From: a virus
Lineage: Duplodnaviria; Heunggongvirae; Uroviricota; Caudoviricetes
Length of the DNA: 10,181 nucleotides
Direction: 5' to 3' (one strand)
IMG/VR virus record: IMGVR_UViG_2671180454_000008
The notes under the pieces were generated by a model that saw nothing but the letters and a program-made list of their open reading frames with translations, did not search any database and was not told the DNA's origin. The translations under genes and the position numbers were made by a program. Shown one piece after another: positions 8,127 to 9,647 of the stretch. Every line of letters starts with the position of its first letter. The stretch's first letter is position 1.

Positions 8127-8367
8127 TTAACGCGTATTTTTCAGCGACTCCTGTGCAAAATACGCTGTTGCTTTTTTTAATATATCTCGCTCAAGGCGAG
8201 CTTCATTTAACGCCTTACGCAGTTGCAGAATTTCAGATTCCAGTTCAGCCACCGTGCGGGAACCAGGAGTACCGAGCCCTTTTCTGGCGGCGGTAACCCA
8301 TTGTCCTAAAGTGCCTTCAGGAAGAGATAATCGGGAAGCGCCTTCACTGATCGAAAGTTGATTTTCA
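8127..8367 (-). pseudogene. IS600 OrfA, N-terminally truncated (helix-turn-helix/leucine-zipper protein)
   Basis: ...ENQLSISEGASRLSLPEGTLGQWVTAARKGLGTPGSRTVAELESEILQLRKALNEARLERDILKKATAYFAQESLKNTR matches IS600 OrfA lacking its first ~19 residues; the start codon assigned in the six-frame track is spurious. Confidence 0.8.
8171..8180 (-). promoter_or_regulatory. Putative IS3-family -1 programmed frameshift site (A-rich slippery heptamer)
   Basis: The minus strand reads TTAAAAAAAG inside the orfA 3' region where the orfB frame opens; typical A AAA AAG-type motif. Confidence 0.4.
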
Positions 8368-8368
8368 N

Positions 8369-8533
8369 GCATTACTGAGCCACTTCGATAAACACGGTCA
8401 GGTTGAGTTCACGGAAAAGGTACCCGCCGATGCGATGGTATGTACTCTGGAACGGTTTAAATTTTATCTGGAGCAACACGGGTGGATCGTTGCCCGTAAA
8501 GAGCAACTGGTGGAGCGGTTGATGCGGTTTTAA
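8369..8533 (+). pseudogene. 3' fragment (last 54 codons) of the ORF6N-domain gene, fused to the truncated IS600
   Basis: Identical to 3508-3672; no start codon or N-terminal domain. Confidence 0.75.
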
Positions 8534-8608
8534 AAATTTTTTCCGAAAACTTTACGATCGTAAAAAGTTGAATATCCTGTTAAGAGTGGTTACTACGCCA
8601 CACAGCTT

Positions 8609-8634
8609 AAACCCGCCGATGAGCGGGTTTTTTT
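8609..8634 (+). terminator. Intrinsic terminator (copy of 3748-3773)
   Basis: Identical sequence. Confidence 0.5.
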
Positions 8635-8684
8635 ATACCTGAAAAACGGCACAGGACGTTAAACGTGCTGGTGGTCAGATGAGT

Positions 8685-8713
8685 TTGCAGATGTGATGAC
8701 ATATGGTTATTAT
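8685..8713 (+). promoter_or_regulatory. Candidate tRNA-array promoter (copy)
   Basis: Identical to 6699-6727. Confidence 0.4.
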
Positions 8714-8722
8714 TCTGCCTCC

Positions 8723-8799
8723 GGCCCTTTAGCTCAGTTGGTCAGAGCGAGCGACTCATAATCGCCAGGTCGCTGGTTCAAGTCCAGCAAGGGCCACCA
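8723..8799 (+). tRNA. tRNA CAU anticodon (Ile2/Met), duplicate copy
   Basis: Identical to 6737-6813. Confidence 0.85.
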
Positions 8800-8800
8800 A

Positions 8801-8877
8801 CCACCACTAGCTCATCCGGATAGAGCATCAACCTTCTAAGTTGACGGTGCGAGGTTCGAGTCCTCGGTGGTGGGCCA
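8801..8877 (+). tRNA. tRNA-Arg (UCU), duplicate copy
   Basis: Identical to 6815-6891. Confidence 0.75.
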
Positions 8878-8879
8878 GC

Positions 8880-8955
8880 GCCGACTTAGCTCAGCAGGCA
8901 GAGCAACTGACTTGTAATCAGTAGGTCACCAGTTCGATTCCGGTAGTCGGCACCA
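8880..8955 (+). tRNA. tRNA-Thr (UGU), duplicate copy
   Basis: Identical to 6894-6969. Confidence 0.8.
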
Positions 8956-8958
8956 TAT

Positions 8959-9033
8959 GCGGGCATCGTATAATGGCTATTACCTCAGCCTTCCAAGCTG
9001 ATGATGCGGGTTCGATTCCCGCTGCCCGCTCCA
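8959..9033 (+). tRNA. tRNA-Gly (UCC), duplicate copy
   Basis: Identical to 6973-7047. Confidence 0.85.
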
Positions 9034-9647
9034 GCGAGATTTGAGACGAAGGTTGTTATTTGCACTGACACAATATTGTGTGGGAATGTCTGACTCCTTA
9101 CCATCTCCTGTTCTGTGATGTTGTTTTGTTGCAGTTCCAGTGCTCTTTTTTCAGCACCAGAATGGTGCATTGTCGGTCAGGTTACGTAGTGAACCTCTGG
9201 CAGGGGACTGATAATGCATCATTCTGGTGTTGTAAATATCTCTTCGGACAACTTACAAAATATTCTAAGCAAACCCCGGGAACACACTCTTAACTGCCTT
9301 GGCTGGCGGTTTTTTGTACAGCGCTCGGTATGTGTGAGCTGGAAATCAGATTTTGCATGGACTGGAATCATGCTGTTATTTAGGGGCGAAGAACTGGCTT
9401 TTTCTTCCGCCTTCTCACCAGTAACGATTAGAAAAATAATGAAATGCCCCCCTCCGGGGAGGAGGACCGTAGAAAAAAGGACCCGCCAGCAAAAACATTG
9501 GGGATGAACAGCTTTCGCTACTCAGATTGCTGGCGGGTAAAGTTCCTCATGAATTAAGAATGCTACGCGATCTTTTTTAATGGAAATGAAAATTATTGTC
9601 AATTAGTCGTGCGTGTTTTTTCATACAATATTGGTAAAGGTGATTCA

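What the first reader, a model, noticed from the sequence alone, without database searches (positions are those of the whole stretch)
8360..9034. Exact chimeric duplicate next to a truncated IS600 and an ambiguous base
Segment 8369-9034 is base-for-base identical first to 3508-3939 (3' end of the ORF6N gene, terminator, tRNA-CAU) and then, without a seam, to 6814-7048 (tRNA-Arg/Thr/Gly). Its left edge abuts an IS600 that is cut short by about 125 bp exactly at the n at 8368. So the window holds three copies of the tRNA leader and tRNA-CAU and two copies of the four-tRNA array. Zero divergence across more than 400 bp means either a very recent duplication or recombination between two prophages, or collapsed and mis-joined repeats in the assembly.
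Basis: seen in the sequence. Interest (0 to 1): 0.55.

Follow-up and report, generated by a model that had tools for sequence, protein, structure and literature searches.

The report
Scaffold mis-join in draft Shigella assembly
The "exact chimeric duplicate" is most likely an assembly artefact: the window is one scaffold of a draft Shigella sonnei genome in which pieces of three separate chromosomal places were joined through repeats, so 432 bases of one prophage are written twice.

Summary
8369-8800 equals 3508-3939, and 8623-9034 equals 6637-7048, both with no mismatch. IS600 stops 126 bp short at the single N at 8368.

The window is the whole record CXDT01000176.1 of draft assembly GCA_001249065.1. 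Its two N stretches (3993-4013 and 8368) split it into three blocks.

In the complete S. sonnei chromosomes read, blocks I (1-3939) and III (8369-10181) form one continuous prophage locus: helicase, RusA, Q, ORF6N, four tRNAs, holin, lysozyme. They overlap by exactly those 432 bp, so the same DNA is written twice.

Block II (IS1, DUF1367, YbcO, DUF1133-type Q, four tRNAs, IS600) lies about 1.06 Mb away in the one chromosome where both were located, and there its IS600 is complete.

Bases 3940-3992 are the flank of a chromosomal ileX-like tRNA. It shares only its last 33 nt with the phage tRNA-CAU.

So copy C is native, not chimeric; it is copy A's right end that is mis-joined. Only the 412-bp tRNA cassette shared by two prophage remnants is a real repeat, and such cassettes are already known in lambdoid prophages. 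No reads were available, so a real strain-specific rearrangement is unlikely but not formally excluded.

The parts
1..3939 (+). Block I: left part of prophage locus X. It holds an IS2 end (1-133), replicative helicase, an 85-aa ORF, RusA, Q antiterminator (PF06530), an isrK/C4-type RNA region, the ORF6N gene (3109-3672), a terminator and tRNA-CAU.
   Evidence: 100% identical over 3939 bp to complete S. sonnei chromosomes, for example L014/L016-L018 8121-12059. Pfam labels of the called genes come, and the Rfam hits.
3508..3939 (+). Copy A: the 3' end of ORF6N, the terminator, the leader and tRNA-CAU. This is the same genomic DNA as 8369-8800, written a second time.
   Evidence: Exact identity. 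Both stretches map to the single stretch L016 11628-12059.
3907..3939 (+). The last 33 nt of tRNA-CAU, shared exactly with a chromosomal ileX-like tRNA. This is the point where the sequence path switches from locus X to another locus.
   Evidence: Base-by-base comparison of the window with L016 and L014.
3940..3992 (+). 3' flank of the chromosomal ileX-like tRNA-CAU. It does not belong to the prophage locus.
   Evidence: 100% identical to L016 (reverse strand, next to the tRNA at 1827-1902) and to L014 1638-1690. In those genomes it is followed by 256 bp and then an IS1.
3993..4013 (.). Scaffold gap of 21 N. In complete genomes the corresponding distance from the ileX flank to IS1 base 11 is 266 bp.
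   Evidence: The Ns are in the deposited record.
4014..4771 (-). IS1 lacking its terminal 10 bp on the gap side.
   Evidence: 99.7-99.9% identical to many IS1 copies. The 10 missing bases were counted against L004.
4014..8367 (+). Block II: prophage remnant locus Y. It holds IS1, a 70-aa ORF, DUF1367, YbcO, a DUF1133-type Q protein, a terminator, four tRNAs, a 181-bp unique tail and IS600.
   Evidence: Collinear with complete S. sonnei chromosomes, with only 2 mismatches in 4354 bp against L004 8908-13261. Neither block I nor block III adjoins it within 10 kb there. Holin-lysozyme cassettes seen nearby in L006, L008, L010 and L012 match block III at only 95.7% and are paralogues from another prophage.
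6637..7048 (+). Copy B: the real second genomic copy of the 412-bp cassette (descending arm of the terminator, leader, tRNA-CAU, Arg-TCT, Thr-TGT, Gly-TCC).
   Evidence: Both loci carry the 412 bp at 100% identity in the same complete chromosome, CP104423.1 (L003 and L013).
7230..8367 (-). IS600, 1138 of 1264 bp. The last 126 bp (start of orfA and one terminal repeat) are missing at the N.
   Evidence: The same copy is complete in L003-L005, L007-L009 and L011. In L006, L010 and L012 the collinear match stops earlier, at window 8046 inside IS600.
8368..8368 (.). A single N, read here as a scaffold join rather than a base-call ambiguity. IS600 would have A at this position and ORF6N would have C. 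The flanks share no microhomology.
8369..9034 (+). Copy C: the native continuation of locus X. It holds the last 54 codons of ORF6N plus the stop (8369-8533), an intrinsic terminator (8609-8630 plus T run), a leader, tRNA-CAU 8723-8799, Arg 8801-8877, Thr 8880-8955 and Gly 8959-9033.
   Evidence: Contiguous in L013-L020.
8369..10181 (+). Block III: right part of locus X, running through the holin (9714-) into the lysozyme gene.
   Evidence: 98.1-98.9% identical to L013-L020 11628-13440. The ORF6N stop-to-holin start distance is 1181 bp both in the window and in the complete genomes. A second draft assembly has this piece as a separate 1181-bp contig equal to 9001-10181.

Best explanation
The window is a scaffold, not a stretch of chromosome. 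It is the complete 10,181-bp record CXDT01000176.1 of the draft Shigella sonnei assembly GCA_001249065.1.

The real genome has two lambdoid prophage remnants, about 1.06 Mb apart in the one chromosome where both were located. Locus X reads IS2, helicase, RusA, Q, ORF6N, four tRNAs, holin, lysozyme. Locus Y reads IS1, DUF1367, YbcO, DUF1133-Q, four tRNAs, IS600. They share an identical 412-bp terminator-leader-tRNA cassette.

The scaffold starts in X and reaches tRNA-CAU. It slips through the 33 nt that this tRNA shares with a chromosomal ileX-like tRNA into that tRNA's flank. It then crosses an N gap into an IS1, which is a collapsed multi-copy repeat, and comes out in locus Y. It runs through Y into IS600, another multi-copy repeat. 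Finally it crosses a one-N gap back into locus X, 432 bp upstream of where it left.

Those 432 bp (3508-3939 and 8369-8800) are therefore one piece of DNA written twice, as happens when both edges of a scaffold gap are extended separately and never merged.

Shown here: the mapping of every block to finished genomes, the position of the Ns exactly at the block boundaries, and the truncation of the IS copies at the Ns. Inferred: that read-pair scaffolding and gap-edge extension (SSPACE/GapFiller-like software) produced the joins. The exact algorithmic path cannot be reconstructed without the reads.
For: (1): the window equals the deposited draft contig, Ns included.
(2): window 1-3939 equals 8121-12059 (100%) and window 8369-10181 equals 11628-13440 (98-99%) in the complete chromosomes L014 and L016-L019. 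L013, L015 and L020 agree apart from an extra IS600 in the helicase gene. The two blocks overlap by exactly 432 bp in one locus. One search confirms that both A and C equal L016 11628-12059.
(3): block II is collinear with 10 complete-chromosome loci, with 2 mismatches in 4354 bp against L004. IS600 is complete there, and no block I or III sequence adjoins it within 10 kb. In CP104423.1 the two loci start at about 920,874 and 1,985,886.
(4): 3940-3992 is the 100% flank of a chromosomal tRNA-CAU that shares only its last 33 nt with the phage tRNA. In complete genomes this flank is followed by 256 bp and an IS1 in the same orientation as in the window, so 266 bp stand where the window has 21 N.
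(5): IS600 is cut 126 bp short and IS1 10 bp short exactly at the Ns, at internal positions, with no microhomology across 8368.
(6): neither junction occurs in the 20 complete-genome loci held, in the GTDB species representatives, or in 5426 complete E. coli genomes.
(7): a second draft assembly has the right part of X as its own 1181-bp contig. It begins 34 nt inside the 412-bp repeat and ends at the same base as the window, which is typical of short-read contig breaks at repeat boundaries.
(8) PMC5320598 describes a Velvet+SSPACE+GapFiller pipeline. It inserts Ns where read pairs join contigs, admits false joins from greedy steps, and was applied to 299 S. sonnei isolates (mean 405 contigs). 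PMC3446322 states that GapFiller extends each gap edge separately, trims 10 nt at gap edges and leaves gaps open mainly in repeats.
Against: No reads or long-read data for this isolate were available, so the joins are judged only against other strains. S. sonnei genomes do undergo many IS-mediated rearrangements, and the complete genomes themselves differ around both loci.

I could not show which software made this assembly. The accessions are absent from the supplements held for PMC5320598.

I cannot explain which read pairs would have linked the IS600 end of block II to the ORF6N tail.
Confidence: 0.9

Rival explanations
1. The order is real in this isolate. An IS1-locus Y-IS600 segment moved into locus X, with a duplication of 432 bp of X. 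The Ns are only short unresolved stretches inside a correctly ordered scaffold.
For: S. sonnei carries hundreds of IS copies, and the complete genomes differ by IS-linked inversions and insertions around both loci. Block II is bounded by IS1 and IS600, as a composite mobile segment would be.
Against: IS-mediated events leave complete IS ends. Here IS600 lacks 126 bp and abuts an internal point of the ORF6N gene with no IS end and no microhomology. The left join goes through the flank of a different tRNA, and 266 bp of real sequence is replaced by 21 N. Three independent illegitimate events would have to coincide with the only Ns of the record. The junctions are found nowhere else. All repeat junctions present are the parental ones (X-left/cassette/X-right and Y-left/cassette/Y-right), so there is no sign of recombination between the cassettes.
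Confidence: 0.05
2. The zero divergence reflects a very recent duplication or gene conversion between two prophages.
For: For B versus C this is partly true. The 412-bp cassette is 100% identical at loci X and Y in the same complete chromosome, CP104423.1. E. coli relatives of the cassette are only 96-99% identical. Homogenisation within the S. sonnei lineage is therefore plausible.
Against: It does not explain A versus C. Those 432 bp, including 254 bp found only at locus X, map to a single place in the complete genomes. The B/C identity is a property of the species' finished genomes, not an event in this window.
Confidence: 0.04
3. The n at 8368 is a simple ambiguous base call inside continuous sequence, for example a polymorphic site.
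For: It is a single character, and records do sometimes carry single ambiguous bases.
Against: Sequence identity switches at exactly this base. To its left is IS600, 100% identical to other copies up to 8367. To its right is ORF6N, 100% identical from 8369. The two sources would have A and C here, and they map about 1 Mb apart.
Confidence: 0.01

Closest known systems
False joins and redundant gap edges from read-pair scaffolding and gap filling of short-read assemblies (SSPACE, GapFiller; Page et al. 2016, PMC5320598; Boetzer & Pirovano 2012, PMC3446322)
   Same: Ns sit exactly where blocks from different loci meet. The blocks end inside multi-copy IS elements. The sequence next to one gap repeats sequence elsewhere in the scaffold. 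The gap length (21 N) does not match the true distance (266 bp). S. sonnei is a heavily fragmented species in that pipeline (mean 405 contigs).
   Different: I could not show that this assembly was made with these programs.
tRNA gene cassettes in the late region of lambdoid prophages, between Q and the lysis genes (for example ileZ-argN-argO of Stx phage 933W; from general knowledge)
   Same: The cassette lies downstream of a Q antiterminator gene and a terminator and upstream of holin and lysozyme. It holds tRNAs reading the rare codons AUA, AGA, ACA and GGA. The same Ile-Arg-Thr-Gly array is annotated in complete E. coli genomes and matches at 96-99% identity.
   Different: There are four tRNAs (CAU, Arg-TCT, Thr-TGT, Gly-TCC) rather than three, and no stx genes follow. 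It occurs behind two unrelated Q types (PF06530 plus ORF6N at locus X, DUF1133 at locus Y).
IS-rich Shigella chromosomes with decayed prophages
   Same: IS1, IS2 and IS600 interrupt both prophage remnants. Complete genomes differ by IS insertions and inversions around them.
   Different: Nothing here goes beyond that known picture once the scaffold joins are removed.

Membership tests
Assembly or scaffolding artefact (mis-join with redundant sequence) | Junctions coincide with gap characters in the deposited record | tested here: met
   The only Ns (3993-4013 and 8368) lie exactly at the block boundaries, and they are in the NCBI record.
Assembly or scaffolding artefact (mis-join with redundant sequence) | The joined blocks map to distant places in finished genomes of the same species | tested here: met
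   Blocks I and III lie at about 0.92 Mb and block II at about 1.99 Mb in CP104423.1. The same separation of contexts holds in 18 complete-genome loci.
Assembly or scaffolding artefact (mis-join with redundant sequence) | The duplicated stretch corresponds to one genomic copy | tested here: met
   A (3508-3939) and the first 432 bp of C both equal L016 11628-12059, where blocks I and III overlap.
Assembly or scaffolding artefact (mis-join with redundant sequence) | No reads span the junctions, and read depth over the duplicate is single-copy | not testable with these tools
   The reads of GCA_001249065.1 are not available here.
Real segmental duplication or rearrangement | Gap-free junctions that recur in independent assemblies | tested here: not met
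   Two of the three junctions carry Ns. None of the junction sequences is found in the held loci, in GTDB representatives or in complete E. coli genomes.
Real segmental duplication or rearrangement | A junction structure explainable by a known mechanism (complete IS ends, target duplications, or homology at the breakpoints) | tested here: not met
   IS600 is cut 126 bp inside its end and IS1 10 bp inside. There is no microhomology at 8368. Only the 3939/3940 switch has homology (33 nt).
Lambdoid prophage late-region tRNA cassette | tRNA genes predicted by independent methods | tested here: met
   ARAGORN and Rfam RF00005 at 56-70 bits.
Lambdoid prophage late-region tRNA cassette | Position between the Q antiterminator/terminator and the holin-lysozyme genes | tested here: met
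   Gene order Q, ORF6N, tRNAs, holin, lysozyme in L013-L020, and Q(DUF1133), tRNAs at locus Y. A terminator lies at 8609-8630.
Lambdoid prophage late-region tRNA cassette | The tRNAs are expressed and used for late-gene translation | not testable with these tools
   No expression data were available.
IS600 (IS3 family) | Full-length element with both terminal inverted repeats | tested here: not met
   Only 1138 of 1264 bp are present in the window. The end holding the start of orfA is missing at the N. The same copy is complete in finished genomes.

The most novel reading that the evidence does not exclude
This S. sonnei isolate really carries the written order. The 4.35-kb IS1-bounded and IS600-bounded remnant of prophage Y would have been inserted into prophage X next to a 432-bp duplication, giving three phage tRNA-CAU genes. 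The event would have occurred by illegitimate recombination at IS-internal points.
Probability: 0.04. Interest if true: 0.25.

Novelty: not a real feature. Interest (0 to 1): 0.06.

Why it matters
It matters mainly as a warning. Scaffolds deposited as "contigs" in large short-read collections of IS-rich species such as Shigella can carry false joins and doubled gap-edge sequence. These look like very recent duplications, inflate tRNA gene counts, and create apparently truncated IS elements and gene fragments.

An N sitting exactly at a change of sequence identity is the tell-tale sign. The real biology underneath is two decayed lambdoid prophages sharing an identical four-tRNA cassette behind different Q genes. 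That is ordinary for this group.

Tried and rejected
(1) I looked for microhomology at 8368 that could explain a real illegitimate join or an overlap-based merge. There is none: IS600 continues AGAACC..., while ORF6N upstream ends ...GGATGC.

(2) I searched 5426 complete E. coli genomes for the whole right-hand block and for the junction itself. No place covers 80% or more of either query. The E. coli relatives are only 90-99% identical, which pointed to Shigella as the source.

(3) I searched phage records with the ORF6N region and found only partial matches at 79-95% identity to antirepressor (ant) regions. This did not help with the junction question.

(4) I tested recombination between the two 412-bp cassettes as the origin. 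This is rejected because both cassettes keep their parental flanks on both sides.

(5) I tried to tie the assembly to the Sanger Velvet/SSPACE/GapFiller pipeline through the paper's supplements. The accessions are not in the files held, so the software attribution remains an inference.

(6) Exact-pattern scans of the GTDB species representatives for both junctions found 0 hits. This is weak evidence, because S. sonnei is probably represented there only under E. coli.

Full report
**Check of the observation.**
The repeats are exactly as described.
- A, 3508-3939, equals C, 8369-8800: 432 bp with no mismatch.
- B, 6637-7048, equals C, 8623-9034: 412 bp with no mismatch.
- A and B share 178 bp (3762-3939 equals 6637-6814).

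ARAGORN and Rfam find tRNA-CAU three times and Arg-TCT, Thr-TGT and Gly-TCC twice each. RefSeq annotates the same CAU tRNA as tRNA-Ile in E. coli relatives. The only non-ACGT characters are 21 N at 3993-4013 and one N at 8368. IS600 occupies 7230-8367 on the minus strand and lacks exactly 126 bp at the N. The IS1 at 4014-4771 lacks exactly 10 bp at the N run.

**Source of the window.**
Looking up the odd 91-aa holin fusion ORF (9714-9989) returned the record itself. The window is the complete 10,181-bp entry CXDT01000176.1 of draft assembly GCA_001249065.1, and the Ns are in the deposited sequence. Block II proteins and block I proteins occur in many complete chromosomes of 4.8-5.0 Mb, including HE616528.1, which from memory is Shigella sonnei 53G. 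The best complete E. coli genomes are only 90-99% identical.

**What the finished genomes show.**
The two N stretches cut the window into three blocks.
- Block I is 1-3992. Its part 1-3939 matches complete chromosomes at 100%, for example L014 and L016-L018 at 8121-12059.
- Block III is 8369-10181. It matches the same loci at 11628-13440 with 98.1-98.9% identity.
- The two blocks therefore overlap by exactly 432 bp in one continuous locus X: IS2, helicase, 85-aa ORF, RusA, Q (PF06530), ORF6N, four tRNAs, holin, lysozyme. Both A and the first 432 bp of C equal L016 11628-12059.
- The distance from the ORF6N stop to the holin start is 1181 bp both in the window's block III and in the complete genomes.
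- Block II is 4014-8367. It is collinear with a different locus Y: hok, IS1, 70-aa ORF, DUF1367, YbcO, DUF1133-type Q, four tRNAs, IS600. It differs from L004 at only 2 of 4354 positions. There IS600 is complete, and no block I or III sequence adjoins it within 10 kb.
- In CP104423.1, which was retrieved for both loci, X starts near 920,874 and Y near 1,985,886, about 1.06 Mb apart.
- The 412-bp cassette is 100% identical at X and Y in that same chromosome. B versus C is therefore a real two-copy repeat.

**The left join.**
After tRNA-CAU, block I continues with 53 bp (3940-3992) that do not belong to locus X. They are the 100% identical 3' flank of a chromosomal ileX-like tRNA-CAU (L016 1827-1902, minus strand). 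That tRNA is about 92% identical to the phage tRNA and shares exactly its last 33 nt. In complete genomes this flank is followed by 256 bp and then an IS1, in the same orientation as in the window. The window's 21 N thus stand for 266 real bases.

The path therefore leaves locus X through a 33-nt shared tRNA end. It picks up a true "flank to IS1" link, and leaves the collapsed IS1 repeat at the wrong copy, the one at locus Y.

**The right join.**
At 8368 the identity switches within one base. To the left is IS600, which would continue with A (AGAACCGTTC...). To the right is the interior of the ORF6N gene, whose preceding base is C. There is no microhomology and no IS end.

A second draft assembly, GCA_001249975.1, holds the right part of X as a separate 1181-bp contig. 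It equals window 9001-10181 apart from two bases. It starts 34 nt inside the cassette and ends at the same base as the window. That is the usual look of short-read contig breaks at repeat boundaries. It suggests that 8369-9000 in the window was added by extension from the gap edge.

**Absence elsewhere.**
Neither junction sequence occurs in any of the 20 complete-genome loci held. Neither occurs in the GTDB species representatives. No complete E. coli genome covers the IS600/ORF6N junction.

**Explanation.**
The most economical reading is a scaffold that walks through four repeats: the tRNA 3' end, IS1, IS600 and the cassette. It returns to locus X 432 bp upstream of where it left, so those 432 bp are written twice.

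This matches the documented behaviour of read-pair scaffolding and gap filling. Page et al. (PMC5320598) describe a Velvet, SSPACE and GapFiller pipeline that puts Ns where read pairs join contigs. They call both tools greedy and prone to false joins, and they list 299 S. sonnei assemblies with a mean of 405 contigs. Boetzer and Pirovano (PMC3446322) state that GapFiller extends each gap edge separately by k-mers, trims 10 nt at gap edges, closes a gap only if the extensions overlap and fit the estimated size, and leaves gaps open mainly in repeats.

The 10 bp missing from IS1 at its gap edge would fit that trimming, but this may be coincidence. I could not show that this assembly was made with these tools, so that step is inference. 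I also cannot say which read pairs linked IS600 to the ORF6N tail.

**Rivals.**
A real rearrangement in this isolate is conceivable, because S. sonnei is rich in IS-mediated change. It would, however, need three illegitimate events that coincide with the only Ns of the record. It would also need IS elements broken at internal points and a 432-bp duplication, and all cassette flanks are the parental combinations. I give it about 5%.

Recent duplication or gene conversion between prophages explains only the B/C identity. That identity is a stable feature of the finished genomes, not of this window. A plain ambiguous base at 8368 is ruled out by the switch of identity at that base.

**What is really in 8360-9034.**
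- 8360-8367: the last bases of the IS600 fragment.
- 8368: the scaffold gap.
- 8369-8533: the last 54 codons and stop of the ORF6N gene.
- 8609-8630 plus T run: an intrinsic terminator.
- An 85-nt leader with a weak promoter-like site.
- 8723-9033: the four tRNAs.

In locus X the cassette sits between the Q/ORF6N region and the lysis genes, the usual place for tRNA genes in lambdoid prophages. From general knowledge, such tRNAs (AUA, AGA, ACA and GGA readers) are thought to help translation of late phage genes. This was not tested here.

**Verdict.**
The feature as flagged is not real biology. Interest is low.

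Noticed in passing
window 9912-9931: A 20-bp copy of the IS2 terminal repeat (TGGATTTGCCCCTATATTTC, the reverse complement of the IS2 end at 114-133) replaces exactly 20 bp of the complete-genome sequence (GCTGCGAGAGGTGAATAATG). The lost bases hold the holin stop codon, the ribosome-binding site and the lysozyme ATG. The result is a 91-aa holin fusion ORF and a lysozyme gene without a start. The same sequence is in a second draft assembly (CXBY01000351.1) but in none of the complete genomes read. Four further base differences from the complete genomes cluster within about 60 bp of it. 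It could be a real IS2 insertion-deletion scar marking a rare lineage. The equal length of 20 for 20 bp is odd.
   Followed up: partly
window 2656-3071: Rfam finds a phage P1/Gifsy-type regulatory RNA region between the Q gene and the ORF6N gene: c4-a1b1 targets (2656-2708), isrK (2669-2745, 77 bits), C4 antisense RNA (2771-2854, 71 bits) and sRNA-Xcc1 (2988-3071, 77 bits). This suggests that the ORF6N protein is an antirepressor-type gene under antisense RNA control, as phage records annotate for related sequences.
   Followed up: no
window 3762 / 6637 / 8623 (left edge of the 412-bp repeat): The identity between loci X and Y begins in the descending arm of the terminator hairpin. Upstream, both loci keep the ascending arm CCCGC but have different loops (cgatga versus tttat) and unrelated sequence before it. 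The terminator is thus preserved at the mosaic boundary.
   Followed up: no
window 7049-7229 versus L001 9484-9608: In E. coli FDAARGOS_943 an IS600 in the same orientation follows the same tRNA-Gly, but it starts 56 bp earlier than in S. sonnei (window 7174-7229 is absent there). This points to independent insertions, or an adjacent deletion, at the same spot downstream of the cassette.
   Followed up: no
L003-L005, L009, L011 about 13385-13740 (downstream of block II in complete genomes): The complete IS600 of locus Y is followed directly by a second, partial IS600 fragment in the same orientation (window 8012-8367 or 8239-8367 matches again). The orfA end of IS600 is therefore locally duplicated in the real genome, which would further confuse a short-read assembly at this gap.
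   Followed up: no
window 9213 and 9216: Two base differences 3 bp apart (A and G here; G and T in the complete genomes and in the second draft contig). They may come from a paralogous prophage copy, or they may be errors.
   Followed up: no
L013, L015, L020 (about 7317-8458) versus window 465-468: Some complete S. sonnei chromosomes carry an extra IS600 inside the helicase gene of locus X, with a 4-bp overlap of the flanks. This insertion is absent from the window.
   Followed up: no
L014 1-1690 versus L016 749-2714: The ileX-like tRNA region about 6 kb upstream of locus X differs between complete genomes. One has a P4-type integrase next to a 47-bp tRNA 3' fragment. The others have the whole tRNA in the opposite orientation between two IS1 copies, which suggests an IS1-mediated inversion.
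   Followed up: no
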